From: Escherichia phage ECOP18
Strand: one strand, 5' to 3'
Sequence record: NC_105825.1
Length of the DNA: 64,000 nucleotides
The translations under genes and the position numbers were made by a program. Under the pieces are notes generated by a model, which was not told the origin of the DNA, made no database searches, and saw only the letters and a list, made by a program, of their open reading frames with translations. Below, in pieces: positions 10,073-60,989 of the stretch (positions are counted from its first letter, which is position 1; each line of letters starts with the position of its first letter).

Positions 10073-10968
10073 TTTTTAATTTCTCCAAAGAAATCTATTC
10101 TCACTGGGTCTGAAGAAGCAGTAGGTATAATATCCCACTCAACTCTATACACATCTGAGAAATCTAGGCGTTTTGTAATACGTGCTAAAGGAAAATCTAT
10201 AGAAATATTATTATTTCTTATATTTAAAGGTACATCGGTCTCTGGTTCGATATTGTAAACCATATCTCCAGCAAAACGTTTTAAGTAGTATAGAGAAATG
10301 GTTGCCGAAGCATTCATTTCATTTACATAAGCTCTTTTATTATTATAAATTTTATTTATATCAAAAACACTCTTATCTTCTCTCCAAGAGCATTGCTGTT
10401 GAAAAGATAAAGAAGCGGAAATAAGGCCAGGTAAGATGCTACCGTTAGTAGAAACTATTACCGGGCTATAAGACATTGCTTCACCTTGTATAATAGAAGC
10501 TGCTTCTCTATATGTAGATACCTCGGAAAATTTCCCTGATTCAATACCAACATTAAGAATTGGTATATTCTTATCTAAAGAAAAATCTACAGTAGATACA
10601 TAGCAGTTCTCAAAATATACACAGTTATTATCTTTATTTACTATATAGATATTAAACATAATAGGTTCAATGTTGTTACTATATAGTGGTAGTAAGAAAG
10701 TATTACCTTTTCTATCAAAACCTAGCCATTCGAAAAAATTAGCTTCAGTAAGTGTATTACTAAAATTTATTGCTAATGATATAGAAGAAGGAGTTTGAGC
10801 ATTTATAATAGAGTCTGCATAGTTAGTTCTACGATGAACAGTCCTACGAAGAGTCTTGAATTCCTCGTAGGAAGTCTGTATATCATAGTTTGATAGGGCA
10901 TCAAAATGAAATGCCCTACCATCATACTCAACTATAACTTTTGACTCTCGCATTAGAGAGTAGTACAT
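10069..10968 (-). CDS. hypothetical tail protein (299 aa)
   Basis: ORF track; inside structural module. Confidence 0.4.
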   Translation of the reverse strand: MYYSLMRESKVIVEYDGRAFHFDALSNYDIQTSYEEFKTLRRTVHRRTNYADSIINAQTPSSISLAINFSNTLTEANFFEWLGFDRKGNTFLLPLYSNNIEPIMFNIYIVNKDNNCVYFENCYVSTVDFSLDKNIPILNVGIESGKFSEVSTYREAASIIQGEAMSYSPVIVSTNGSILPGLISASLSFQQQCSWREDKSVFDINKIYNNKRAYVNEMNASATISLYYLKRFAGDMVYNIEPETDVPLNIRNNNISIDFPLARITKRLDFSDVYRVEWDIIPTASSDPVRIDFFGEIKK

Positions 10969-12405: not shown

Positions 12406-12891
12406 TTATCTGCGAAGTGACCTACGTGGAGGCTGATACCTCACTGTTACATTTATTTCTGCTAAACCATATGGGGCCAGTAGACCCTCATCTGTACTAA
12501 CTGATGTAATGCTCATATCAGTCGCCTCACATGGGAAGGTCGATCCATTAGGTTTACTAACAGTATATTCTAAATTTCCACCTGTGTCAATAACGGTTTT
12601 TATATCCGCTACGAGTTTTTCAAGTTGCTCTTGAATGTCTGTTTTCTCTTTATCATACACCAGGATAGGAAGTTCTAAAAACATCCACTGTTGACCTGAG
12701 GGAAGATACTGCCCAGTTTCAGTTCCGATATGAACTGCAACATAAGGAAACTCTCGTATCTCCTCAAACTTATAAGTTTGACGTGAGACGTTTCCATACA
12801 AGTTATTAAAATATTCATCTGGTTGAGAGCCATCCATTTGTTTGGCTATTCGATCAACCAGAGCTTGTGCTATACTTGTTCTGTGATCCAT
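12406..12891 (-). CDS. tail completion/neck protein (161 aa)
   Basis: ORF between capsid and tail tube genes. Confidence 0.4.
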   Translation of the reverse strand: MDHRTSIAQALVDRIAKQMDGSQPDEYFNNLYGNVSRQTYKFEEIREFPYVAVHIGTETGQYLPSGQQWMFLELPILVYDKEKTDIQEQLEKLVADIKTVIDTGGNLEYTVSKPNGSTFPCEATDMSITSVSTDEGLLAPYGLAEINVTVRYQPPRRSLRR

Positions 12892-53239: not shown

Positions 53240-53315
53240 TGGTAGTTAGTAGTGGATTTGAACCACTGTAGTCGCTCCGTATGAAGGAGGTGCATAACCA
53301 CTCTGCCAACTAACT
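53240..53315 (-). tRNA. tRNA, anticodon CAT (Met, fMet or Ile2)
   Basis: Manual fold: 7-bp acceptor AGTTAGT/ACTAACT, T-arm AGTGG-TTCAAAT-CCACT, loop TTCATAC, CCA encoded. Confidence 0.55.
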
Positions 53316-53482
53316 AGTTAATTCTTTATAGGTTAGATCTAGAAGATCTTTCTTACTGATAAGTCCTTCTCTATATTGGTCAATAAACATATCTATTCTA
53401 GAGTTCTCTGAGACTTCTATATCAGAAAGTTCAGCAAATATTTTTGCAAGTTTATCAATATCTTCCATACATAACCTTAATT

Positions 53483-53559
53483 TGGTACTCCGGGAGGGAT
53501 TTAAACCCCCGATCTCTCGGTTATCAGCCGAGTGCTTTAGATCGCTAAGCTACCGAAGC
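53483..53559 (-). tRNA. tRNA-Ile (anticodon GAT)
   Basis: Manual fold: acceptor GCTTCGG/CCGGAGT, anticodon stem CTCGG/CCGAG, loop CTGATAA. Confidence 0.65.
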
Positions 53560-53560
53560 A

Positions 53561-53788
53561 TTAACATTTTACAGCAGAACGTTTGCCATTTCTAGGTGCA
53601 CCTGGAAGTCGTGCACGTTCTGCCATTCTTCTCTTAATCTTTGAGATATTTTCTAGTGTTTGTTCCTCCGGCTTAATACCTGAAACACTACACCACTGAT
53701 TACCATCCCATGCGGTAATGATCATAACACCATTACTCATGATCTTTTCTGTAAAAGTAATCCTCATTATAGCAACTCGTCTAAGCAA
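53561..53788 (-). CDS. hypothetical protein (75 aa)
   Basis: ORF track. Confidence 0.35.
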   Translation of the reverse strand: MLRRVAIMRITFTEKIMSNGVMIITAWDGNQWCSVSGIKPEEQTLENISKIKRRMAERARLPGAPRNGKRSAVKC

Positions 53789-54060
53789 GAGGTATATTTA
53801 AGTTTACCATCTTTATCTACTTTGATTTCGACTTCCGCTCGTGGTACTTGATGAACTACACCATGAATCATCTTATAGCGAATGCCTTTAGCTGGTTCAT
53901 GCTCTTTTGGAAATACTTGCTTAACCGTTACTACCTTAAAACCCTCACGCGGTGTTAACACTACTACTTGATCACCTTCTTTGATCTTCCAAGAGCCAGG
54001 AAATTCATAGGTATAGCGTTGACCACCAGTTTGGAACACAACAGAAAGATAACGTTTCAT
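53767..54060 (-). CDS. hypothetical protein (97 aa)
   Basis: ORF track. Confidence 0.4.
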   Translation of the reverse strand: MKRYLSVVFQTGGQRYTYEFPGSWKIKEGDQVVVLTPREGFKVVTVKQVFPKEHEPAKGIRYKMIHGVVHQVPRAEVEIKVDKDGKLKYTSCLDELL

Positions 54061-54090
54061 TTGGCTTCCCTCTCATTAATTTATATAAAT

Positions 54091-54119
54091 ATTATAACAA
54101 TAAATAAGAGAGAAAGCAA
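54091..54119 (-). promoter_or_regulatory. early sigma70-type promoter (-35 TTGCTT, 17 bp, -10 TATAAT)
   Basis: Read on minus strand. Confidence 0.6.
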
Positions 54120-54127
54120 ATGAATTT

Positions 54128-54322
54128 TTAATAAAGTTTAGTCACTTCATAAACTATACTACGAGATTCTTTATTACGTTCTATTAAATTAGAATATGCT
54201 TTTTCAGCTTCATTTTTAGTATTAAAGTCTATAACGTGGGAGGTATTCGCTCTATTTGATTGACTATACCAGATAACTACTAATAATTTAAACATAATAG
54301 TCCTTAAGTTGGTGCTGGGCAC
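54128..54322 (-). CDS. hypothetical protein (64 aa)
   Basis: ORF track; 3' end abuts tRNA. Confidence 0.3.
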   Translation of the reverse strand: MPSTNLRTIMFKLLVVIWYSQSNRANTSHVIDFNTKNEAEKAYSNLIERNKESRSIVYEVTKLY

Positions 54323-54396
54323 AGGATTCGAACCTGTAACGGGATTACTCCTCCTGATTACAAATCAGGTGCATTCAACCATTCTGCCGACCCAGC
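54310..54396 (-). tRNA. tRNA with long variable region; anticodon loop reads TGT (identity uncertain)
   Basis: Manual fold: acceptor GCTGGGT/GCCCAGC, T-arm ACAGG-TTCGAAT-CCTGT, anticodon stem CCTGA/TCAGG, 15-nt variable region. Confidence 0.45.
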
Positions 54397-54561
54397 AGAA
54401 CCCGTTATTTCAACGGGATTTCTTTTTCAATAATAGGAGACTTATCAGTCATAACCGCCATTGCCATTTGTTGTAGAAATTCAAAGGTGAAGGCTACACG
54501 TTCTTCACCAATCTCTACTTCTACACGTTTCTTTTGTTTATCGATCTTGACTTTTAGGTTA

Positions 54562-54813
54562 TCAGCCATTAGAGAGTACAGTACTGGTAGTTGGCAATAC
54601 TACAGATGAAGCAACAGTGTTTAAATGCTTTCTCCAGTCTAGGTTAAATTGTTTTCGAAACTCTTCATAAGGTTCTTCTGGATAAAAGCTAAAACCTCCT
54701 TTCTCATCATTCAGGATAACAGAGCCGTCAGTTTGTTCGTATGCTCGGTATGTTTCTCCAATAACAATAACTCGTTTTTCGGTACTTTTATTACGAAACT
54801 CAAAAACGTGCAT
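54562..54813 (-). CDS. hypothetical protein (83 aa)
   Basis: ORF track. Confidence 0.35.
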   Translation of the reverse strand: MHVFEFRNKSTEKRVIVIGETYRAYEQTDGSVILNDEKGGFSFYPEEPYEEFRKQFNLDWRKHLNTVASSVVLPTTSTVLSNG

Positions 54814-54829
54814 AATGTTTCCTTAAAGT

Positions 54830-54905
54830 TGGAGCGGCTAGAGGGAATCGAACCCTACTCAGCGAGGCTTGGAAGGCCTGCGGCACAACCCGTGTGCTTA
54901 ACCGC
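54830..54905 (-). tRNA. tRNA-Gly (anticodon TCC)
   Basis: Manual fold: acceptor GCGGTTA/TAGCCGC, loop CTTCCAA. Confidence 0.55.
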
Positions 54906-54913
54906 TTATTGTT

Positions 54914-54989
54914 TGGCTGGAGAAGGAGGAATCGAACCTACCATTAACGGAGTCAAAGGCCGTTGTGCTAACCGTTACACTACTCTCCA
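54914..54989 (-). tRNA. tRNA-Gln (anticodon TTG)
   Basis: Manual fold: acceptor TGGAGAG/TTCTCCA, discriminator G, loop CTTTGAC. Confidence 0.6.
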
Positions 54990-54995
54990 ATTATT

Positions 54996-55071
54996 TGGCT
55001 GGGATGCCACGGATCGAACGTGGAACCTTCGGAGTCAGAGGCCGACGATCTGCCAATTGATCTACATCCCA
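54996..55071 (-). tRNA. tRNA-Gln (anticodon CTG)
   Basis: Manual fold: acceptor TGGGATG/CATCCCA, D-stem GATC/GATC, loop CTCTGAC. Confidence 0.6.
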
Positions 55072-55083
55072 ATAATTTTTATT

Positions 55084-55278
55084 CTACGGAAAAATTGTTG
55101 TTGGCTCAGATTCTTCCAAACGTTTGCCTTCATGATCAACACGAATAACGCCGCATCCTTCGCAAATCACAACTGCACCATAACCTTCTTTGACCTCAGC
55201 TTCTGTAATCAAACCAGAAAGATCACCAGTATCTTTACCCCACATATCAATGGAGCATTGTTTGCAGAAATCAGCCAT
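55084..55278 (-). CDS. zinc-ribbon protein (64 aa)
   Basis: CKQC...CEGC motifs. Confidence 0.4.
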   Translation of the reverse strand: MADFCKQCSIDMWGKDTGDLSGLITEAEVKEGYGAVVICEGCGVIRVDHEGKRLEESEPTTIFP

Positions 55279-55303
55279 ATTTTATTTCCTATTTAAGTTA
55301 ATT

Positions 55304-55380
55304 TGGGGTGGCTAGTGAAATTCGAATCCACATAGGCCTGATTCACAATCAGGATCATTAACCAATTATGATATAGCCAC
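55304..55380 (-). tRNA. tRNA-His (anticodon GTG)
   Basis: Manual fold: acceptor GTGGCTA/TAGCCAC, anticodon stem CCTGA/TCAGG, loop TTGTGAA. Confidence 0.65.
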
Positions 55381-55603
55381 AATTGAAAACTCGCAGGGTT
55401 AGCGAAACCTTCCTCAATTAGCATGTTCTAGAATACTAATCAAGTTATCTCCTATTGCACGCAGCTCAAGACGAGTACGAATTTTCAATTGTGGCGGCTC
55501 TCAGAAACTCTTCTACTCTAGTCTTAGCAGCTTACTCCCGAACGCATGTCGGGGAAGTCTTACTAAGCGCATCAAATAGCACCGTTACACTTTGAGCCAT
55601 TGG

Positions 55604-55700
55604 TGTATTAAGAAGCAGAAGGACTTGAACCTTCACGAGATAGACCATTTATCTCAGCCGCTTTATGAGGTATGTTGCAGGGAGTGGATGTTCCCTATAA
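55604..55700 (-). ncRNA. tRNA-like element with canonical T-arm but no matching acceptor stem
   Basis: T-arm GAAGG-TTCAAGT-CCTTC and hairpin GAGATA-AATGGTC-TATCTC; no 5' acceptor partner found. Confidence 0.25.
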
Positions 55701-55746
55701 ACCTTTTAGGCAGCCCCGTCTACCGATTCCGGCATACTTCAGGATT

Positions 55747-55841
55747 TGGAGGTAGGTAAGGGGATCGAACCCTTACACCGTATCACTACGATCAACCGAT
55801 TTCAAGTCGGAGTCCAGCGCCAGCCATTGGATTGACCTACC
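55747..55841 (-). tRNA. tRNA-Ser (anticodon TGA), long variable arm
   Basis: Manual fold: acceptor GGTAGGT/ACCTACC, T-arm AAGGG-TTCGATC-CCCTT, loop CTTGAAA. Confidence 0.6.
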
Positions 55842-55853
55842 ATATAAATTGTT

Positions 55854-55944
55854 TGGCGGAAGAGGAGAGATTTGAACTCTCAAGCCGTTTTACCAGTCAG
55901 CCACTTTCCAAGCGGTTTTCGTCACCAATTCGATTTGCTCTTCC
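55854..55944 (-). tRNA. tRNA-Ser (anticodon GGA), long variable arm
   Basis: Manual fold: acceptor GGAAGAG/CTCTTCC, T-arm GAGAG-TTCAAAT-CTCTC, loop TTGGAAA. Confidence 0.5.
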
Positions 55945-55980
55945 AATAACAAGATGATGCCTCTATCACACCAGGCAGTT

Positions 55981-56053
55981 ACGCCTCGCTGGGATTCGAA
56001 CCCATTAAAACAGCTCAACCGAGATAGTAGGTTTAATTTACTCTGACCATCAA
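55981..56053 (-). ncRNA. tRNA-like element (GGGTTCGAATCCC T-arm) without recognisable acceptor stem
   Basis: T-arm at 55989-56005; no complementary 5' strand within tRNA distance. Confidence 0.25.
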
Positions 56054-56056
56054 ATT

Positions 56057-56133
56057 TGGTGCGTGACAAGGGATTCGAACCCTCAAAACCCGACTTCTAA
56101 GGACGGTATGTATGCCAATTCCATCAATCACGC
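56057..56133 (-). tRNA. tRNA, anticodon loop reads TAG (Leu-type anticodon on short-variable-arm scaffold)
   Basis: Manual fold: acceptor GCGTGAT/GTCACGC, T-arm GAGGG-TTCGAAT-CCCTT, loop CTTAGAA, 5-nt variable loop. Confidence 0.5.
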
Positions 56134-56138
56134 GTATT

Positions 56139-56217
56139 TGGTGGAGAATAACGGAATCGAACCGTTCTGATGTCCTCGGTGCAAGCGAGGTGTCCACTCC
56201 ATGCAGACCCATTCCCC
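56139..56217 (-). tRNA. tRNA-Ala (anticodon TGC)
   Basis: Manual fold: anticodon stem CCTCG/CGAGG, loop CTTGCAC, acceptor with G3-U70 pair. Confidence 0.6.
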
Positions 56218-56455
56218 AAATTATTTAGTTTACTAAGGCTATTAGCTCGGCGTAACTACAGCACCTTCGCTTCGAGCGGAAGGAACCGCGTCATCTCGCA
56301 AACCCGATACACTATTCAGTTGCCACTGAATCTAGTGGACTAATCTAGAACTTCTCCCGAATCGTAGGGATCGTGCTTTTTGGCAGCCAGTCCTAGGTCG
56401 AACTAATACCTTAGTGAACTATGATGAGGATTTCTCCTCATCAATTTATATAAAT

Positions 56456-56484
56456 ATTATAACAAGAAATTAAGCATTAAGCAA
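56456..56484 (-). promoter_or_regulatory. early sigma70-type promoter feeding leftward tRNA cluster
   Basis: -35 TTGCTT, 17-bp spacer, -10 TATAAT read on minus strand. Confidence 0.6.
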
Positions 56485-56502
56485 CTGCGTTTTTCTTGAA
56501 AT

Positions 56503-56581
56503 TGGTAGATCGCCTGGGACTCGAACCCAGAACCTTCCGATTAAAAGTCGGATGCTACTAAACCTATTGAGCTAGCGATCT
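56503..56581 (-). tRNA. tRNA-Lys (anticodon TTT)
   Basis: Manual fold: acceptor AGATCGC/GCGATCT, anticodon stem TCCGA/TCGGA, loop CTTTTAA. Confidence 0.65.
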
Positions 56582-56769
56582 ATTAGTAACCATTATACAC
56601 TTCTTTAATAGAGTGGACTTTTAAGTAAGGGTGATTAGTACTAAACTCTACCATTACTTCATCCCAATTTTTACCATAATGAGCGAGTAAGGATTTTGAT
56701 GTATTCTTACCTAACCGTTTGTCACTTACTACTAATCGAAATACTTTCATTTCGAAATCCTCTATTAAA

Positions 56770-56847
56770 ATGGAAGCGGGTGCAGGAATCGAACCTACCT
56801 CTTTCTAGCTTATGAGACTAGCGATCTCTACCAGAGATCTAACCCGC
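56770..56847 (-). tRNA. tRNA-Met-like (anticodon CAT), unpaired position 1-72
   Basis: Manual fold: loop CTCATAA, T-arm GTAGG-TTCGATT-CCTGC. Confidence 0.5.
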
Positions 56848-56853
56848 AATTGT

Positions 56854-56930
56854 TTGGTCAGTGCGGCAGGACTCGAACCTGCGACCCGAAGCATCCAAGG
56901 CTCCCACGCTACCAACTGCGCTACGCACTG
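56854..56930 (-). tRNA. tRNA-Pro (anticodon TGG)
   Basis: Manual fold: perfect acceptor CAGTGCG/CGCACTG, loop CTTGGAT. Confidence 0.65.
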
Positions 56931-56939
56931 TTAATTCTT

Positions 56940-57137
56940 TTATTGTGGAGGAATATTAATAATTCGTCCGTCTACACAATAAACGGTACTAGGAATTGTA
57001 CTATATATGTAGAAATTCTTTATATTACTCTCTCCGCCACAGAAATTTTTAGCAAATTCATACTCTTTATTAATGGTTGAGTCAAGTTTAAAACAACCAG
57101 TAAGTAGGAATACAGACAGCAGTAAAACTTTTTTCAT
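56940..57137 (-). CDS. small lipoprotein (65 aa)
   Basis: Signal peptide with lipobox LTGC; embedded in tRNA array. Confidence 0.5.
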   Translation of the reverse strand: MKKVLLLSVFLLTGCFKLDSTINKEYEFAKNFCGGESNIKNFYIYSTIPSTVYCVDGRIINIPPQ

Positions 57138-57169
57138 TTTGCTTTCCTTCTCAACACTTTATAAGGTAT

Positions 57170-57198
57170 ATTATACAGAGAATTAAGCATAATAGCAA
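57170..57198 (-). promoter_or_regulatory. early sigma70-type promoter (-35 TTGCTA, 17 bp, -10 TATAAT)
   Basis: Read on minus strand. Confidence 0.6.
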
Positions 57199-57347
57199 AT
57201 GAATTTTTAATAAATTTACTTATTGTGTAGGCCACCTGGAGGCTACCAACCCCACGGCTGACAAAGAAGTTTGCGAGACCTCTCTTAAGTGCCAGAATAG
57301 ACCCGCCGATCTATCGGAACCTACATAATAAGTAAACTTTATAGTGT

Positions 57348-57468
57348 CATTCTAGACAGGACTCGAACCTGTTATCACTTGTGCGGACTTACGAGAACCA
57401 TTCTTTCACTCGAATCGAACGAGCTTCTGCCCTCGCCAAGCTGGTTTCCCCATCAACCACGCTAGAAT
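57348..57468 (-). ncRNA. structured tRNA-like region (two T-arm-like hairpins inside a 7-bp inverted repeat)
   Basis: attctag...ctagaat terminal pairing, internal ACAGG-ACTCGAA-CCTGT and ACTCG-AATCGAA-CGAG hairpins. Confidence 0.25.
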
Positions 57469-57632
57469 GTTTGATTGTTTTCAGTGCAAGAGTCCGAGTC
57501 TTGGACACGACCGCTTCGCAAGTACATAGGCAGCTTATCATGAGTCAGCACTTCCGAATTGCTAGCTCCGTGTTCTGCACTGAAATTTTATTAGTTTAAC
57601 CGTAAAGTATTATCTACTTCACCATTAATTGT

Positions 57633-57938
57633 TCAGCATTCTTCTGGGATTGCTGGTGTAGCCTTATATTCCCACCATTCAGAACCGTCGTATTCACCAC
57701 GTTCTAACCAAGTTCCATCAGTAAACCACACGTTACCATAAAGCAATTGCCCACCGAAACCAGAATCATATTTAAAGTCTAGATTATTTAGAAAATCTTC
57801 AATATCTTTTTCTGTATAACCTACGGGTAACACCCAAACTTCTTTGTCCCCATAATAACCGAATTCTATCTTAATACACTTAACTTCAGAATTAATATTC
57901 TTTAAGGCAAGTAACAATTCTTCTTTAGCATTAATCAT
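57633..57938 (-). CDS. hypothetical protein (101 aa)
   Basis: ORF track. Confidence 0.4.
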   Translation of the reverse strand: MINAKEELLLALKNINSEVKCIKIEFGYYGDKEVWVLPVGYTEKDIEDFLNNLDFKYDSGFGGQLLYGNVWFTDGTWLERGEYDGSEWWEYKATPAIPEEC

Positions 57939-57964
57939 AGCATATTTCTCGTACTAGTTTAATT

Positions 57965-58041
57965 TGGCGCGACCGATGGGATTTGAACCCACATTCTCTC
58001 CCGTGACAGGGGAGTACCATTACCAAGCCAGCCCCGGTCGC
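57965..58041 (-). tRNA. tRNA-Asp (anticodon GTC)
   Basis: Manual fold: acceptor GCGACCG/CGGTCGC, anticodon stem CTCCC/GGGAG, loop CTGTCAC. Confidence 0.7.
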
Positions 58042-58050
58042 ATAATTCAT

Positions 58051-58236
58051 TTACTCAGCTTTGAGTTTTTCAATAGCTGCATTAAGTTCTTTAAGAAACT
58101 TTTTTCGTACATTAAGACGGTTGAGACTTACTAGTATATCATGTTTAAGTTCTTCGATGTATTTCTTCTCAACTTCAATATTGTTGATAGTGCTATCACG
58201 ATGAACTTCTAGCTGTGCAATTACATTCTTGGACAT
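58051..58236 (-). CDS. hypothetical coiled-coil protein (61 aa)
   Basis: ORF track. Confidence 0.35.
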   Translation of the reverse strand: MSKNVIAQLEVHRDSTINNIEVEKKYIEELKHDILVSLNRLNVRKKFLKELNAAIEKLKAE

Positions 58237-58337
58237 GCTTGTTTCCTCAGTTATTAATGAAAATGGTATCTGTGACTGAATTCGATGTCAGCAATGATAG
58301 CTGGTTGGCTACCGGTTTACTTAACTCTACACAGAAT

Positions 58338-58421
58338 TTGGCGGGCCGTGTAGGATTCGAACCTACGTTGTCTTTCGACATGGATTAACAGTCCACCGCC
58401 AAACCGCTTGGCTAACGACCC
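58338..58421 (-). tRNA. tRNA with extended variable hairpin; anticodon loop reads GTT (Asn-type)
   Basis: Manual fold: acceptor GGGTCGT/ACGGCCC, T-arm GTAGG-TTCGAAT-CCTAC, loop CTGTTAA, variable hairpin GTC-GAAA-GAC. Confidence 0.45.
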
Positions 58422-58572
58422 TAAATTTATATTGCTGACTAGGATTTTCACCTAGACGGAGTTAGCACCGTAGCGTGTAGCGGCATACCTCTCCAAACCG
58501 TGCCTCATCTTTCAATTACGGAGACAGTGTTCCTACGCGTGCCTGAATTGATTTAACAACTCTTTCAGCAAA

Positions 58573-58649
58573 TTGGACGACCGCATGAGATTTGAACTCA
58601 CATAAAAAGGATTTGCAATCCTTCGCCTAAGCCATTCAGCCAACGGTCG
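58573..58649 (-). tRNA. tRNA-Cys (anticodon GCA)
   Basis: Manual fold: acceptor CGACCGT/GCGGTCG, loop TTGCAAA. Confidence 0.6.
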
Positions 58650-58718
58650 ATTTATCTTGTTCTGTCATGTTGCTTCTCCAGTTCAATTTATGTAATTATT
58701 ATACAGAACTTTTGGAAA

Positions 58719-59006
58719 CTAAGCAACTACATTTTTTAAAAATTTGATGCCTTTCTTTTTCTTCTTATATTTCCACGTTAAGGGATTCTGTCGATTATGA
58801 ACGCTTGAGATCTTTGTCTCGTCAAAGTTCTTCAATATCATGTAATCACAGGATAATTGTTCTAATGGAATGTGATCACCGTCAAAAGCGTATACATAAG
58901 GCTGTTGACTAGCACGATAATGATAGACTTTGTTAATTCTACGTTTCAGCAACTTATCCGCGCAGTAAATAAAGAAGTTTTCAGGATGCATCAGCAGCTC
59001 CCTCAA
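58719..59006 (-). CDS. hypothetical protein (95 aa)
   Basis: ORF track. Confidence 0.4.
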   Translation of the reverse strand: MRELLMHPENFFIYCADKLLKRRINKVYHYRASQQPYVYAFDGDHIPLEQLSCDYMILKNFDETKISSVHNRQNPLTWKYKKKKKGIKFLKNVVA

Positions 59007-59089
59007 TTTGGTGCACCCTGTTCGTATCGAACGAACCTCTCAAGCTCTTCAGGCAAGCGCTAATCCATCTCAGCTAAAGGTGCAAATTT

Positions 59090-59166
59090 TGGCAAACCTA
59101 CTAGGACTTGAACCTAGACCGTACGGTTTTGGAGACCGACATGCTGTCCAGTAACACTCTAGGAAT
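59090..59166 (-). tRNA. tRNA-Trp-like (anticodon CCA), imperfect acceptor stem
   Basis: Manual fold: T-arm CTAGG-TTCAAGT-CCTAG, loop CTCCAAA; two acceptor mismatches. Confidence 0.4.
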
Positions 59167-59173
59167 GCAGGAT

Positions 59174-59250
59174 TGGCGTCCTGTGCGGGGATCGAACCCA
59201 CAAATCCTACCTTGAAAGGGTAGTGACTTTACCAGTTTGTCTAACAGGAC
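59174..59250 (-). tRNA. tRNA-Glu (anticodon TTC)
   Basis: Manual fold: acceptor GTCCTGT/ACAGGAC, anticodon stem CTACC/GGTAG, loop CTTTCAA. Confidence 0.7.
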
Positions 59251-59257
59251 TTAAATT

Positions 59258-59348
59258 TGGTGTTGGATGATGGAGTCGAACCACCCGAGACCCTTCCGAG
59301 TCGGCAGATTTACAGTCTGCTTCGCTACCTCTACGATACTAATCCAAC
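59258..59348 (-). tRNA. tRNA-Tyr (anticodon GTA), long variable arm
   Basis: Manual fold: acceptor GTTGGAT/ATCCAAC, anticodon stem GCAGA/TCTGC, loop CTGTAAA. Confidence 0.7.
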
Positions 59349-59476
59349 ATATTTAAAAGTATTCAAATACTAGTTTAAACACTTTTAGATATGTTTCCAA
59401 ATTAGATAACTATTATATCAAGTTTTATGGCACTGAGCAAGTCAAATTTTAAAGAACTTGCTCAGTGCTGTATTAG

Positions 59477-59752
59477 TTAGTCGAACTTAGGAGCGACAGT
59501 TAAGGAGAATGGAAGTTCGAAAACTTCTTCGCCCTCATCACTAACAGTAATTACACGACCTTTAAGTTCAGACATTGAAATATCAATATCAGCTTTTGCA
59601 TCTGGAGCCATGCCAGCTTCAATACATTTAGCTTTAACTTCCGGCAGAAGTTCTACATCGTAGAAATAAAGCCATTCAATCTCACCTTCCCAGCCTTCCC
59701 AGGATTTACAGATTGCACTTTCAATACCAGTTGCTATAACACGATTTTGCAT
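59477..59752 (-). CDS. hypothetical acidic protein (91 aa)
   Basis: ORF track. Confidence 0.4.
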   Translation of the reverse strand: MQNRVIATGIESAICKSWEGWEGEIEWLYFYDVELLPEVKAKCIEAGMAPDAKADIDISMSELKGRVITVSDEGEEVFELPFSLTVAPKFD

Positions 59753-59781
59753 TCGTTAACTCCTTCATCAATTTATATAAC

Positions 59782-59810
59782 TATTATACCAGAAATTTAA
59801 AGCAAAAGGC
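59782..59810 (-). promoter_or_regulatory. early sigma70-type promoter (-35 TTGCCT, 17 bp, -10 TATAAT)
   Basis: Read on minus strand. Confidence 0.55.
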
Positions 59811-59842
59811 AAGTACATTTTTAAAAATTCTGTTTGGAGGAG

Positions 59843-60049
59843 CTAAACTCCAGATTCTTCAGCTAAGTCTAGGCTAATAAGAGATATAGCCATAATTGCT
59901 GCTCCGTGTTCTCTTTCTCCTGTCTCTTTAGCTAGGGTTATAATATCAAGAAATTGCTTATGAAAGTCTGCAACCTCTTGAGTCATACCTGCCTCAGCAA
60001 TCATGCCTTTAAGCATGAAACGTTGTGCGGTAATTTCGGGATTAGCCAT
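59843..60049 (-). CDS. hypothetical protein (68 aa)
   Basis: ORF track. Confidence 0.4.
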   Translation of the reverse strand: MANPEITAQRFMLKGMIAEAGMTQEVADFHKQFLDIITLAKETGEREHGAAIMAISLISLDLAEESGV

Positions 60050-60224
60050 GTTGTTTCTCCAGTTTCATGTTTAATAGTCTACAAATAAAATCAATGTCTT
60101 CATCTGTGCCTAGATCTCTATCTTCAAGAGTTGCCTTGAAGTTTTTCGTCAATTCCATGAGGATAACTTCTATAGAACGACGTGTTGGCGGAGGTGGATG
60201 TCTATACATCTTATTTCCTTAAGT

Positions 60225-60301
60225 TGGTAGGGGTGGTGGGATTCGAACCCACAAAACCTGAATTTTAAGTCCAGTACCTATGCCAATTCGATTACACCCC
60301 C
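60225..60301 (-). tRNA. tRNA, anticodon loop reads TAA (Leu-type anticodon on short-variable-arm scaffold)
   Basis: Manual fold: acceptor GGGGGTG/CACCCCT, T-arm GTGGG-TTCGAAT-CCCAC, loop CTTAAAA. Confidence 0.5.
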
Positions 60302-60402
60302 ATGTAATCAGTTTATTAGTTGATACATATTATAGCCTAGTGAAAATCCTACTACTAGTCCCACAAACCAACCAATATAATAATCTTTTAGTTTCACAGG
60401 TA

Positions 60403-60588
60403 TTATCCTCGTTCAATATCTAGGGAAACACCGCAGTTAGGATTAATACCTGTACCGTTGCAATTTGAACAAATCCAGATATTGCAAAAAGTATCTCCTG
60501 CTTCTGCATCAGAACTTTCACCAATTCCCCTACACTCAGGGCAGGCACATTCTTCTAGCTCTTGCTTGAGTTCTTGAAACTTGGACAT
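60403..60588 (-). CDS. zinc-ribbon protein (61 aa)
   Basis: CxxC...CxxC pairs. Confidence 0.4.
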   Translation of the reverse strand: MSKFQELKQELEECACPECRGIGESSDAEAGDTFCNIWICSNCNGTGINPNCGVSLDIERG

Positions 60589-60597
60589 ATAGTCTCC

Positions 60598-60790
60598 TTA
60601 GTCAATTACTTTTGAGGCTTCAAGGGAGTCGATATAGTATACGTTTTCTACCATAATCATATAATCTGCCACTTTATCCATAGCTTGGGCCTCAGAGGTA
60701 GCTCTGGCTAACCTATATCCTTTTTTATATTCATCCGGGTATTCTCTATCTTGAATAAATACAACATAAACTATGTATAATTCCACTTGT
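60598..60790 (-). CDS. hypothetical protein (~63 aa, GTG start)
   Basis: RBS aggggа-like AGGGGA 6 nt upstream of GTG at 60788-60790; ORF-track N-terminal extension overlaps two tRNAs and is rejected. Confidence 0.3.
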
Positions 60791-60816
60791 AATCCCCTAA
60801 TTAAGTTGGTGGCTCC

Positions 60817-60894
60817 CCGAGGATTCGAACCTACGTACCTTCCGGTTATGAGCCGGGTGCTCATACCATATGAGCTTGAGAACCAGAATTTGGC
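60817..60894 (-). tRNA. tRNA, anticodon CAT (Met, fMet or Ile2), extended D hairpin
   Basis: Manual fold: acceptor GGTTCTC/GGGAGCC with two G-U pairs, loop CTCATAA. Confidence 0.45.
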
Positions 60895-60900
60895 GGAAGA

Positions 60901-60989
60901 AGTGGGAATCGAACCCACAAGGCTATATTTCAAACCGACAGATTAGCAATCTGCTGCAATACCGTTATGCTATTCTTCCGAATTTATAA
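60901..60989 (-). tRNA. tRNA-Ser (anticodon GCT), long variable arm
   Basis: Manual fold: acceptor GGAAGAA/TTCTTCC, T-arm GTGGG-TTCGATT-CCCAC, loop TTGCTAA. Confidence 0.6.

What the first reader, a model, noticed from the sequence alone, without database searches (positions are those of the whole stretch)
53240..60989. tRNA array with non-canonical scaffold and anticodon combinations
I folded 23 tRNAs by hand on the minus strand. Two carry Leu-type anticodons (TAG, TAA) on 77-nt short-variable-arm scaffolds. Two carry Thr- or Asn-type anticodon loops (TGT, GTT) on long-variable-region scaffolds. Three carry CAT, and one Trp-like gene has a mismatched acceptor stem. No tRNA-Arg, Phe or Val is present in the window. 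Phage tRNA sets are known to replace host tRNAs targeted by anticodon nucleases, so unusual scaffolds could be escape variants. Manual folding may also be wrong.
Basis: partly seen in the sequence, partly recalled or inferred. Interest (0 to 1): 0.6.

Follow-up and report, generated by a model that had tools for sequence, protein, structure and literature searches.

The report
Phage tRNAs with swapped extra arms
This T5-like phage carries 24 tRNA genes. Its two leucine tRNAs lack the usual extra arm, and its threonine and asparagine tRNAs have gained a small one; these shapes are conserved across hundreds of phages and may help phage tRNAs escape host tRNA-cutting defences.

Summary
ARAGORN, Rfam and model-free folding confirm two 77-nt tRNA-Leu (UAG, UAA) with 5-nt variable loops. 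They also confirm an 87-nt tRNA-Thr(UGU) and an 83-nt tRNA-Asn(GUU), each with an extra 3-bp, GNRA-capped hairpin.

Corrections: there are 24 tRNAs, not 23. tRNA-Phe is present. tRNA-Arg lies about 500 bp beyond the window end. Only tRNA-Val is truly missing.

The region is the tRNA cluster of a Tequintavirus, 99.8% identical to T5_ev212. Reference T5 carries different, conventionally shaped Thr, Leu(UAG) and Asn genes in the same slots.

The odd shapes are not degenerate. Each keeps the identity elements of its anticodon-matched synthetase. The extra hairpins covary in 25–32 divergent homologues. Related genes occur in hundreds of phage genomes from several families, but the long-arm Asn pattern matched only 25 loci among 185,579 bacterial and archaeal species.

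Thr(UGU) and Asn(GUU) are published targets of the Toprim tRNases AriB (PARIS) and P2-OLD. The window's Thr keeps every published sequence determinant of cleavage and differs mainly in architecture.

Best reading, inferred and not shown: normal decoders whose reshaped variable region evades shape-reading host tRNases. The Leu arm loss has no identified selective agent.

The parts
54310..54396 (-). tRNA-Thr(UGU), 87 nt with encoded CCA. Class II-like: 3-bp D stem, 11-nt D loop, 15-nt variable region A-GGA-GUAA-UCC-CGUU.
   Evidence: ARAGORN. Rfam 54.1 bits. MFE five-arm fold, z = -3.07. V-stem covariation in 25 homologues. G1-C72, C2-G71 and A73 present. Carries C8, unlike all database copies.
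58339..58421 (-). tRNA-Asn(GUU), 83 nt. 13-nt variable region GUC-GAAA-GAC-AAC; G73 discriminator.
   Evidence: ARAGORN. Rfam 59.0 bits. MFE five-arm fold, z = -2.77. V-stem covariation in 32 homologues. 533 phage records cover at least 80% of the gene.
56057..56133 (-). tRNA-Leu(UAG), 77 nt, class I scaffold. Variable loop GUUUU. tRNA-Leu-type D arm UGAUGGAAUUGGCAUACAUA. A73. U30.U40 mismatch in the anticodon stem.
   Evidence: ARAGORN. Rfam 47.5 bits. Comparison with E. coli leuW. 362 phage records cover at least 80%, including Felixounavirus and about 147-kb myoviruses.
60225..60301 (-). tRNA-Leu(UAA), 77 nt, class I scaffold and paralogue of the UAG gene. It occupies the slot where T5 has the HNH gene hegA.
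   Evidence: ARAGORN. Rfam 57.4 bits. 339 phage records cover at least 80%, 291 of them at 99% identity or more. T5 annotation.
56503..56581 (-). tRNA-Lys(UUU), 79 nt. A different allele from T5's. Reads U36AAUCG41, where E. coli has ...CA41 and T5 has UAAACC.
59258..59348 (-). tRNA-Tyr(GUA), 91 nt, class II. Its sequence differs from the T5 gene in the same slot.
59090..59166 (-). tRNA-Trp(CCA), 77 nt, with U.U mismatches at pairs 2-71 and 3-70. Has A1-U72 and G73. Near-identical (one base in the T loop) in T5_ev212 and Bas33, which carry the same U.U mismatches.
   Evidence: Rfam 36.3 bits.
53240..53315 (-). tRNA-Met(CAU), elongator; identical to the T5 gene.
56771..56848 (-). tRNA-fMet(CAU), initiator by T5 annotation; identical to the T5 gene.
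60807..60884 (-). CAU tRNA homologous to T5 tRNA-Ile2(CAU), i.e. a presumed lysidine-modified Ile decoder.
   Evidence: Rfam 40.3 bits. Relaxed ARAGORN. T5 annotation.
53483..53559 (-). tRNA-Ile(GAU)
54830..54905 (-). tRNA-Gly(UCC)
   Evidence: Relaxed ARAGORN. Annotated in T5_ev212.
54914..55071 (-). tRNA-Gln(UUG) 54914-54989 and tRNA-Gln(CUG) 54996-55071
55304..55380 (-). tRNA-His(GUG)
55747..55944 (-). tRNA-Ser(UGA) 55747-55841 and tRNA-Ser(GGA) 55854-55944, conventional class II tRNAs.
   Evidence: Relaxed ARAGORN. Annotated in T5_ev212.
56139..56217 (-). tRNA-Ala(UGC), 79 nt with a 7-nt variable loop. Its sequence differs from the T5 gene in the same slot.
56855..56930 (-). tRNA-Pro(UGG)
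57965..58041 (-). tRNA-Asp(GUC)
58574..58649 (-). tRNA-Cys(GCA)
59174..59250 (-). tRNA-Glu(UUC)
60891..60979 (-). tRNA-Ser(GCU), conventional class II.

Best explanation
The region is the tRNA gene cluster of a T5-like phage. The four odd genes are working tRNAs that decode normally as Leu, Leu, Thr and Asn. They belong to widespread structural families, enriched in phages and mobile tRNA arrays, in which the variable region has been remodelled while the synthetase identity elements are kept.

- tRNA-Leu has lost its long arm. E. coli LeuRS does not need that arm.
- Within T5-like phages these are interchangeable gene versions in fixed slots. T5 itself carries conventionally shaped versions whose anticodon stems are mutated instead.

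Proposed mechanism (inferred): the new shape lets the phage tRNA escape host tRNases that read tRNA architecture. For Thr and Asn the likely agents are Toprim nucleases of the AriB (PARIS) and P2-OLD type. These cut between nucleotides 40 and 41, three to four nucleotides from where the extra arm emerges. The anticodons themselves serve the phage's A/U-rich codon usage.

Shown here: the structures, their conservation, covariation, identity elements and distribution. Inferred: correct charging, nuclease resistance, and the arm as its cause.
For: Structure and reality of the genes:
- ARAGORN, Rfam and MFE folds agree.
- The extra hairpin covaries. In 25 long-arm Thr sequences all 3 stem pairs change on both sides (9, 9 and 13 sequences; 86.7% paired), against 31-44% paired when the partner is slid. 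In 32 long-arm Asn sequences the three core pairs show 18, 16 and 5 double changes.
- The 15-48 tertiary pair covaries in long-arm Thr: G-C in 57, A-U in 16 of 76.

Identity elements match the anticodon:
- 76/76 distinct long-arm Thr have G1-C72 and C2-G71.
- 87/92 long-arm Asn have G73.
- 50/54 class I Leu have A73 and 53/54 have U48.
- The window's Leu D arms match E. coli leuW and leuZ in length and layout: A14, A15, G18G19, A20a.
- A review states that E. coli LeuRS needs A73 and tertiary elements but not the long arm (PMC9976931).
- UUA plus CUA make up 55% of Leu codons in the window's ORFs, so mischarging would be very costly.

Distribution:
- 101, 362, 533 and 339 phage records cover at least 80% of the Thr, Leu(UAG), Asn and Leu(UAA) genes. 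They include T4-like, FelixO1-like and about 147-kb myoviruses.
- The long-arm Asn pattern hits 115 IMG/VR loci but only 25 loci among 185,579 species genomes, about a third of them in dense tRNA arrays.
- The window's Thr and Leu(UAG) genes have no BLAST match in 5,426 E. coli genomes.

Link to nucleases:
- AriB cleaves E. coli Lys(UUU), Thr(UGU) and Asn(GUU) at 40|41 and also contacts U16 in the D loop.
- P2-OLD prefers thrU and cuts after C28 and C40 in CNG motifs.
- The window's Thr keeps C28-U-G30, U36AAUC|A41-G42, a full 5-bp stem and U16. The window's Asn keeps U36AAUC|C41.
- T5's short-arm Thr and Asn instead carry stem substitutions (UAAGCA with a U28.U42 mismatch; UAAGUU).
- Bas33 has the long-arm Thr (2 differences from the window), a long-arm Asn and no Lys(UUU). 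T5 tRNA-Lys alone rescues it from PARIS, whereas T7 needs Lys plus Thr.
- The arm is isoacceptor-specific: 26% of distinct Thr(UGU) sequences have it, against 0/15 Thr(GGU). The GGU tRNAs are refractory to P2-OLD.
Against: - No cleavage, charging or expression data exist for any long-arm Thr or Asn, or for any arm-less phage Leu.
- The Bas33 argument is indirect.
- Extra hairpins also occur in phage Cys, Trp, Ile(UAU), Glu and Met tRNAs, which are not known targets of these nucleases. A more general cause, such as stability or processing, is possible.
- Enrichment of host-like cleavage motifs in long-arm versus short-arm Thr is weak. Both CNG motifs: 46/76 vs 14/37, p = 0.028. UAAUC: 40/76 vs 13/37, p = 0.11. 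Hosts are unknown and the sample is not independent.
- Simply overexpressing a cleavable tRNA can be enough for rescue (PMC11555353).
- I found no nuclease that uses the tRNA-Leu variable arm as a handle.
- The window's own Thr copy has C8 instead of the near-universal U8, so this particular copy may be impaired.
- My viral sample was selected for phages that hold at least one long-arm tRNA, so the frequencies are not population estimates.
Confidence: 0.45

Rival explanations
1. Supplementation only. The genes exist to supply anticodons for the phage's A/U-rich codons and to out-produce depleted host tRNAs from strong phage promoters. The odd variable regions are tolerated drift or modest stabilisers with no role in evading nucleases.
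For: - The window's ORFs use UUA 32%, CUA 23% and ACA 24% within their codon families.
- Azam 2024 showed that even E. coli tRNA-Tyr rescues from retron Eco7 when driven by the phage promoter.
- E. coli LeuRS does not need the arm, so its loss could be neutral.
- Extra hairpins occur in many isoacceptors.
Against: - Drift does not explain a hairpin kept by compensatory changes across 25-32 divergent sequences with mostly GNRA loops.
- It does not explain the isoacceptor specificity: Thr(UGU) has the arm, Thr(GGU) does not.
- It does not explain the rarity in cellular genomes.
- In T5-like phages the versions are either arm-bearing with a host-like stem, or arm-less with a mutated stem.
Confidence: 0.3
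2. A conflict at the DNA level. Homing endonucleases and recombination between co-infecting phages drive replacement of whole tRNA genes. The diversity reflects escape from endonuclease cleavage of the gene, not selection on the RNA.
For: - T5 has HNH genes (hegA, hegC, hegD) inside the cluster, two of them overlapping tRNA genes (hegC with Ser2, hegD with Gln2). The window has none, and it carries tRNA-Leu(UAA) where T5 has hegA.
- Seven tRNA slots hold unrelated sequences in T5 and the window, while flanking tRNAs are identical.
- T4 SegB acts in this way in the T4 tRNA cluster (PMC2330249).
- Bas34 shows recombination within conserved T-arm sequences.
Against: - It explains gene turnover but not why the RNA hairpin covaries, nor why the same architectures recur in unrelated phage families.
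- It is compatible with the best explanation rather than exclusive of it.
Confidence: 0.1
3. A self-mark. The altered arms let a phage-encoded factor (a tRNA-degrading, repairing or modifying enzyme) tell phage tRNAs from host tRNAs.
For: Only circumstantial: the shapes are enriched in viruses and occur across many isoacceptors.
Against: - No candidate factor was identified in the window.
- The same shapes occur in unrelated phage families with different gene sets.
Confidence: 0.07
4. Recoding or deliberate mischarging. The class II-like Thr and Asn tRNAs are charged by SerRS, LeuRS or TyrRS, or the arm-less Leu tRNAs by another enzyme, which would change the meaning of codons.
For: - The window's Asn has G1-C72, G2-C71, G73 and an extra arm, a combination that resembles serine determinants.
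- The window's Thr has A73 and A15-U48 on a class II-like core.
- Precedents exist: nev-tRNAs (PMC3333845, seen) and allo-tRNAs (PMC5389517, seen).
Against: - Cognate determinants are kept family-wide: G1-C72/C2-G71 in 76/76 Thr and G73 in 87/92 Asn, but acceptor ends vary (60/92 Asn have U1-A72). A73 and U48 are kept in Leu.
- C2-G71 departs from the G2-C71 conserved in bacterial tRNA-Ser.
- The arm is only 3 bp.
- The affected codons are very frequent in phage genes.
Confidence: 0.03

Closest known systems
T5 tRNA-Lys(UUU), Thr(UGU) and Asn(GUU) variants that neutralise PARIS/AriB (Burman 2024, PMC11464382; Belukhina 2025, PMC12409363)
   Same: Same phage genus, same cluster, same three anticodons. 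They replace host tRNAs that are cut at 40|41.
   Different: The published T5 variants are conventionally shaped and carry substitutions at or near the cleavage site. The window's Thr and Asn keep the host-like site and instead carry an extra arm. The main text of PMC12409363 never uses the word 'variable'.
Phage tRNA-Thr(UGU) suppressors of P2-OLD (PMC12445682)
   Same: Thr(UGU) is the key isoacceptor, and the nuclease cuts the anticodon stem.
   Different: The published resistance works by altering the CNG motif and shortening the stem. The window's Thr keeps both CNG motifs and a 5-bp stem.
Type I (short-loop) tRNA-Leu of Streptomyces coelicolor and of animal mitochondria (PMC6614811)
   Same: tRNA-Leu without the long arm, with A73 retained.
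   Different: In that study E. coli LeuRS did not charge the Streptomyces type I tRNA-Leu. The phage genes keep an E. coli-type tRNA-Leu D arm plus U48, which fits charging by the host enzyme. They are phage-borne and common: 64 of 171 Leu tRNAs in my viral sample.
nev-tRNAs and allo-tRNAs: class II tRNAs whose anticodons do not match their charging identity (PMC3333845, PMC5389517)
   Same: A long variable arm on tRNAs whose anticodons are not Leu, Ser or Tyr.
   Different: Those are charged by LeuRS or SerRS against the code. Here the identity elements match the anticodon, and the arm is a minimal hairpin of 3-4 bp.
Bacteriophage T5 tRNA gene region (NC_005859, annotated with 25 tRNA genes, one marked as a pseudogene, and 8 stable RNAs)
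   Same: Syntenic cluster. Met and fMet are identical, and Phe, Ile2 and His are near-identical. Seven of the eight T5 stable RNAs map here (85-99% identity; RNAX lies beyond the window end).
   Different: Thr, Leu(UAG), Asn, Lys, Tyr, Trp and Ala have different sequences. Leu(UAA) is present here. Val and three HNH genes are absent.

Membership tests
tRNA (Rfam RF00005) | Covariance-model score at or above the gathering score (29 bits), with a cloverleaf and a 7-nt anticodon loop | tested here: met
   Scores are 59.0 (Asn), 57.4 (Leu UAA), 54.1 (Thr) and 47.5 (Leu UAG) bits. ARAGORN gives cloverleaves with encoded CCA.
Class II (long-variable-arm) tRNA | Variable region longer than 10 nt that forms a stem-loop | tested here: met
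   Thr has 15 nt and Asn 13 nt, each with a 3-bp stem and a GNRA loop. The stem covaries in homologues. Both Leu genes fail this feature, with 5 nt.
Class II (long-variable-arm) tRNA | 3-bp D stem with an enlarged D loop, as in bacterial Ser, Leu and Tyr tRNAs | tested here: inconclusive
   Thr has a 3-bp D stem and an 11-nt loop. Asn has a 4-bp D stem and a 7-nt loop. The arm-less Leu genes keep the class II-type D arm.
tRNA-Thr (E. coli ThrRS identity) | G1-C72, C2-G71, G35 and U36 | tested here: met
   Present in the window's gene and in 76/76 distinct long-arm homologues. Identity set taken from my own knowledge of the E. coli ThrRS literature; PMC9976931 states only that it comprises acceptor-stem pairs and anticodon nucleotides.
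tRNA-Thr (E. coli ThrRS identity) | Is charged with threonine | not testable with these tools
   Only indirect evidence: Bas33, which has this gene version, needs no added Thr tRNA under PARIS.
tRNA-Asn (E. coli AsnRS identity) | G34, U35, U36 and discriminator G73 | tested here: met
   Present in the window's gene. G73 is found in 87/92 long-arm homologues. Identity set.
tRNA-Leu (E. coli LeuRS identity) | A73, A14, A15-U48, G18G19 in register, A20a; the long arm is not required | tested here: met
   All are present in both window genes, whose D arms have the same length and layout as leuW and leuZ. A73 in 50/54 and U48 in 53/54 phage class I Leu. Rule.
tRNA-Ser (SerRS identity), as the mischarging alternative | Long variable arm, G1-C72/G2-C71 and G73 | tested here: not met
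   Thr has C2-G71 and A73. Asn has G1-C72, G2-C71 and G73, but its arm is only 3 bp, and 60/92 family members have U1-A72. Ser identity is therefore unlikely for Asn, though charging was not tested.
Nuclease-escape phage tRNA variants (AriB or P2-OLD type) | Same anticodon as a host tRNA targeted by the nuclease | tested here: met
   UGU, GUU and UUU are the AriB targets, and UGU is the main P2-OLD target.
Nuclease-escape phage tRNA variants (AriB or P2-OLD type) | [quoted passage not shown] | tested here: not met
   The window's Thr matches thrU at positions 28-31 and 33-42 and has U16. The window's Asn matches asnT at positions 29-41. The window's Lys does differ (G41).
Nuclease-escape phage tRNA variants (AriB or P2-OLD type) | Resists cleavage and rescues infection | not testable with these tools
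   Indirect evidence only (Bas33). In the BASEL data the plating efficiency on P2 Old is 0.8-2.8 for Bas33 and 0.01-0.46 for Bas34, which is too weak to use.

The most novel reading that the evidence does not exclude
Gain or loss of the variable arm is a general and so far undescribed counter-defence strategy of phage tRNAs. A 3-4-bp hairpin, usually GNRA-capped and inserted next to the anticodon stem, sterically shields Thr(UGU), Asn(GUU) and other tRNAs (Cys, Trp, Ile-UAU) from tRNases that grip the anticodon stem and core, such as the Toprim nucleases AriB and OLD. Deleting the arm hides tRNA-Leu from nucleases that use the arm as a handle. In both cases synthetase identity is preserved. 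Architecture, not only sequence around the cut site, would then be an axis of the tRNA arms race.
Probability: 0.35. Interest if true: 0.8.

Novelty: new variant of a known kind. Interest (0 to 1): 0.62.

Why it matters
The textbook rule for bacteria is that only Leu, Ser and Tyr tRNAs carry a long variable arm. My survey suggests phage and mobile tRNA arrays break this rule often and in both directions, while keeping charging identity.

If the reshaped arm blocks AriB- or OLD-type nucleases, three things follow.
- It would explain how a tRNA with an unchanged cleavage site can still protect a phage.
- It would give a simple structural handle for dissecting how these nucleases recognise tRNA.
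- It would offer a design rule for nuclease-resistant tRNAs in phage therapy or synthetic biology.

The arm-less Leu tRNAs with an E. coli-type D arm would also be natural substrates for testing what bacterial LeuRS truly requires.

Even if the shapes turn out to be selectively neutral, annotation pipelines and isotype models should expect them.

Tried and rejected
- An exact 46-nt pattern for the long-arm Thr found only 2 IMG/VR loci. Looser patterns were needed.
- I first took Bas34's annotated 77-nt tRNA-Asn as possible evidence against the arm hypothesis, because Bas34 needs T5 tRNA-Asn under PARIS. Sequence inspection shows it is a deletion chimera: the 5' part of a long-arm Asn joined to the 3' end of fMet, with a broken acceptor stem. 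ARAGORN does not call it. I rejected it as evidence either way.
- BASEL plating data on P2 Old (Bas33 0.8-2.8, Bas34 0.01-0.46) are too weak and confounded to use.
- Enrichment of host-like cleavage motifs in long-arm versus short-arm Thr is only marginal, p = 0.028 and 0.11. I do not rely on it.
- I looked for a nuclease that reads the tRNA-Leu arm and found no case that fits. Bacterial Schlafen RorSlfn5 cuts Lys, phage Ala and Met tRNAs at 30|31. HepS cuts Thr, Ile and Ser. The Gifsy-1 terminase cuts tRNA-Leu(PQTV) in the anticodon region.
- Supplementary files of the two key nuclease papers are not held. I could not check whether a long-arm Thr was among the published rescue tRNAs.
- MFE folding of the two Leu tRNAs does not give a cloverleaf (z = -1.4 and -1.9). 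I treat this as uninformative, given the Rfam and ARAGORN scores and the conservation.
- The consensus promoter scan is not above chance: 20 sites against 21.5 expected. Promoter statements therefore rest on the T5 annotation.
- Seven literature searches found no description of class-switched phage tRNAs (checks in 27, 39, 73). The library lacks most subscription journals, including the older T5 and BF23 tRNA sequencing papers.

Full report
**What is there**

The flagged interval is the tRNA gene cluster of a T5-like phage. The 8.1 kb around it is 99.8% identical to Escherichia phage T5_ev212 and to EC148 (Tequintavirus). It matches 662 phage records in all.

ARAGORN at default settings finds 20 tRNAs, all on the minus strand and all with an encoded CCA. 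Rfam adds a third CAT gene. A relaxed ARAGORN run adds Gly(UCC), Ser(UGA) and Ser(GGA), which are annotated in T5_ev212. That makes 24 genes.

- the two short Leu genes and the long Thr and Asn genes;
- the three CAT genes, whose T5 homologues are annotated as Met, fMet and Ile2;
- the Trp gene, which has U.U mismatches at pairs 2-71 and 3-70.

Arg is not missing from the phage. In T5_ev212 it lies at a position equivalent to about 64516-64590, past the window end. Val is truly absent.

**Anatomy of the four unusual genes**

- **Thr(UGU)** has a 3-bp D stem, an 11-nt D loop and a 15-nt variable region, A-GGA-GUAA-UCC-CGUU.
- **Asn(GUU)** has a 13-nt variable region, GUC-GAAA-GAC-AAC.
- Both fold into five-armed cloverleaves without any tRNA model (z = -3.07 and -2.77).
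- **Leu(UAG) and Leu(UAA)** are paralogues. Each has the variable loop GUUUU and a D arm of the same length and layout as E. coli leuW and leuZ. For example, the phage has UGAUGGAAUUGGCAUACAUA where the host has UGGCGAAAUUGGUAGACGCA. The host's 13-15-nt arm is replaced by 5 nt.

**Comparison with T5**

The reference T5 genome has the same cluster layout. Its Thr is 75 nt, its Leu(UAG) 85 nt (class II) and its Asn 78 nt. It has the HNH gene hegA where the window has Leu(UAA).

Met and fMet are identical, and Phe, Ile2 and His near-identical, between the two phages. Thr, Leu(UAG), Asn, Lys, Tyr, Trp and Ala have unrelated sequences. The cluster is therefore a mosaic of interchangeable gene versions in fixed slots. 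Another relative, Bas28, has an intermediate 81-nt Leu(UAG) and an 81-nt Tyr.

**Are the odd shapes real and selected?**

The genes are common:
- the Thr gene is covered at 80% or more in 101 phage records;
- Leu(UAG) in 362;
- Asn in 533;
- Leu(UAA) in 339.

These records include unrelated families:
- a T4-like Aeromonas phage for Thr;
- Slopekvirus-type T4-like phages of Klebsiella, Enterobacter and Pectobacterium for Asn;
- Felixounavirus and about 147-kb myoviruses for Leu.

Two pattern scans of IMG/VR brought in 235 loci, 240 held in all with the five already fetched. ARAGORN finds 2,246 tRNAs in them. Among them are 92 distinct long-arm Asn, 76 distinct long-arm Thr and 54 distinct arm-less Leu sequences.

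The extra hairpin is maintained by compensatory change:
- In 25 Thr sequences all three stem pairs change on both sides, and 86.7% of cells pair. Only 31-44% pair when the 3' partner is slid by 1-3 columns.
- In 32 Asn sequences the three core pairs show 18, 16 and 5 double changes.
- Loops are mostly GNRA: 29 of 41 in Thr and 50 of 65 in Asn.
- The tertiary 15-48 pair covaries in Thr: G-C in 57 and A-U in 16 of 76.

**Who charges them?**

Identity elements follow the anticodon.
- **Thr:** all 76 long-arm sequences have G1-C72 and C2-G71.
- **Asn:** 87 of 92 long-arm sequences have G73.
- **Leu:** 50 of 54 arm-less sequences have A73, and 53 of 54 have U48.
- A recent review states that E. coli LeuRS depends on A73, A15-U48, G18G19 and A20a, and not on the long arm (PMC9976931). 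The window's Leu genes have all of these.
- UUA and CUA are 55% of Leu codons in the window's ORFs, and ACA is 24% of Thr codons. These tRNAs serve very common phage codons, so mischarging would be very costly.

I conclude, by inference, that decoding is canonical. The anticodon set fits codon supplementation. The scaffolds need a separate explanation.

**Where else do these shapes occur?**

The long-arm Asn pattern hits 115 viral loci. It hits only 25 loci among one genome each of 185,579 bacterial and archaeal species. About a third of these lie in dense tRNA arrays, for example more than 30 tRNAs in 6 kb in Micromonospora and Verrucosispora, and those arrays also carry arm-less Leu genes.

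The window's Thr and Leu(UAG) have no BLAST match in 5,426 complete E. coli genomes.

In my viral sample, 64 of 171 Leu tRNAs are arm-less. Among distinct sequences not selected by the search pattern, extra arms occur in:
- 32% of Ile(UAU);
- 26% of Thr(UGU);
- 20% of Asn(GUU);
- 19% of Cys;
- 16% of Trp;
- 0 of 15 Thr(GGU).

The Cys, Trp and Ile examples keep the cognate discriminators U73, G73 and A73. The sample is conditional on phages that hold at least one long-arm tRNA, so these are not population frequencies.

**Mechanism**

Published work shows the following.
- The PARIS effector AriB cuts E. coli Lys(UUU), Thr(UGU) and Asn(GUU) between nucleotides 40 and 41. Its second subunit contacts U16/U17 in the D loop. 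The T5 Lys, Thr and Asn tRNAs together neutralise PARIS (PMC12409363).
- P2-OLD, a related Toprim nuclease, prefers thrU and cuts after C28 and C40 within CNG motifs. Phage Thr(UGU) tRNAs resist it by changing a CNG motif and shortening the stem (PMC12445682).
- HepS of Salmonella also cuts tRNA-Thr (PMC13043305).

Against this background the window's Thr is striking.
- It matches thrU at positions 28-31 and 33-42. It has both CNG motifs, U36AAUC|A41, a full 5-bp stem and U16.
- The window's Asn likewise keeps U36AAUC|C41.
- T5's arm-less versions instead carry stem changes: UAAGCA with a U28.U42 mismatch in Thr, and UAAGUU in Asn.
- So within one genus there are two alternative solutions: mutate the site, or keep the site and add an arm that emerges three to four nucleotides from the cut.

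One published experiment bears on this indirectly.
- Bas33 (HildyBeyeler) carries the long-arm Thr (2 differences from the window), a long-arm Asn and no Lys(UUU).
- T5 tRNA-Lys alone rescues Bas33 from PARIS, whereas T7 needs Lys plus Thr.
- This fits a long-arm Thr that works and survives AriB, but it does not prove it.

The inference that the arm sterically blocks these nucleases is mine and is untested. The main texts of both nuclease papers never use the word 'variable'.

For the arm-less Leu tRNAs I found no nuclease that uses the arm as a handle. Escape there is speculation, and neutral loss is a serious alternative.

**Rivals**

- **Supplementation from strong promoters** can be enough for rescue (PMC11555353). 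It explains which anticodons are present but not the covarying hairpin.
- **Homing endonucleases and recombination** plausibly drive turnover of gene versions. HNH genes sit in T5's cluster, and Bas34 carries chimeric tRNAs. They do not explain selection at the RNA level.
- **Mischarging** is unlikely given the identity elements and codon load.
- **A self-mark for a phage factor** has no candidate factor.

**Caveats**

- There is no direct biochemical evidence.
- Motif enrichments are weak.
- Extra arms also occur in isoacceptors not known to be targeted.
- The literature library is incomplete.
- The window's own Thr has C8 where all database copies have U8.

**Verdict**

The genes are ordinary in function as far as sequence can tell, but unusual in architecture. 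That architecture turns out to be a widespread, conserved feature enriched in phages, and I could not find it described. The link to nuclease evasion is a specific and cheap-to-test hypothesis, not a result.

Noticed in passing
window 54389 (tRNA-Thr position 8): The window's tRNA-Thr has C8. T5_ev212, Bas33 and every other database copy have the near-universal U8, and no phage record gives a 100% match. This copy may be functionally impaired, or it may be a strain-specific variant.
   Followed up: partly
window 55382-55736, 56237-56408, 57224-57469, 58264-58336: The ORF-less gaps hold homologues (85-99% identity) of seven T5 'stable RNAs with unknown functions': RNAIII, RNAI, RNA1, RNA2H, RNAIV, RNA2 and RNA3. 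RNA1 and RNA2 are tRNA-like, and relaxed ARAGORN gives weak hits in them. Their function is still unknown.
   Followed up: partly
window 58422-58573: A 152-nt ORF-less spacer lies between tRNA-Asn and tRNA-Cys, where T5 has ORF T5.069. It has no T5 homologue, and its predicted fold is only marginally better than shuffles (z = -1.63).
   Followed up: partly
L267 (Bas34 SelmaRatti) about 10598-10681 and 12522-12612: Two annotated tRNAs in Bas34 are deletion chimeras joined inside the conserved GGTTCGATTCC T arm. One is the 5' part of a long-arm Asn fused to the 3' end of fMet. The other is the 5' part of His fused to the 3' end of Gly. Both have broken acceptor stems. This probably explains why Bas34 needs external tRNA-Asn under PARIS.
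   Followed up: yes
window 53240-60979 versus L002 (T5): The window lacks the three HNH homing-endonuclease genes (hegA, hegC, hegD), tRNA-Val and ORF T5.069, all of which sit inside T5's cluster. tRNA-Leu(UAA) occupies the hegA position.
   Followed up: partly
IMG/VR loci L007-L240: Extra variable-arm hairpins, many GNRA-capped, also occur in phage tRNA-Cys(GCA), Trp(CCA), Ile(UAU), Glu(UUC) and a few Lys(UUU). Where tallied (Cys, Trp, Ile), they keep the cognate discriminator: U73 in 10/10 Cys, G73 in 7/7 Trp, A73 in 8/9 Ile. The phenomenon is broader than Thr and Asn.
   Followed up: partly
L244, L245, L248 (Verrucosispora and Micromonospora chromosomes): Chromosomal arrays of more than 30 tRNA genes in about 6 kb contain a 90-nt long-arm tRNA-Asn and several arm-less tRNA-Leu. 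This links these shapes to mobile tRNA arrays in Actinobacteria, and possibly to the type I tRNA-Leu described in Streptomyces.
   Followed up: no
window 59090-59166: tRNA-Trp, with two U.U mismatches in the acceptor stem, is near-identical (one base in the T loop) in T5_ev212 and Bas33, which carry the same mismatches. T5's own Trp gene is a different, 71-nt oddity that the T5 record says cannot be converted into a suppressor. Trp tRNAs of this phage group may be non-standard or inactive.
   Followed up: partly
window 56503-56581: tRNA-Lys(UUU) here is a third version, distinct from those of T5 and Bas34. It reads UAAUCG at positions 36-41, a single change (A41 to G) from the E. coli AriB site. 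The T5_ev212 record labels it 'tRNA-?'.
   Followed up: partly
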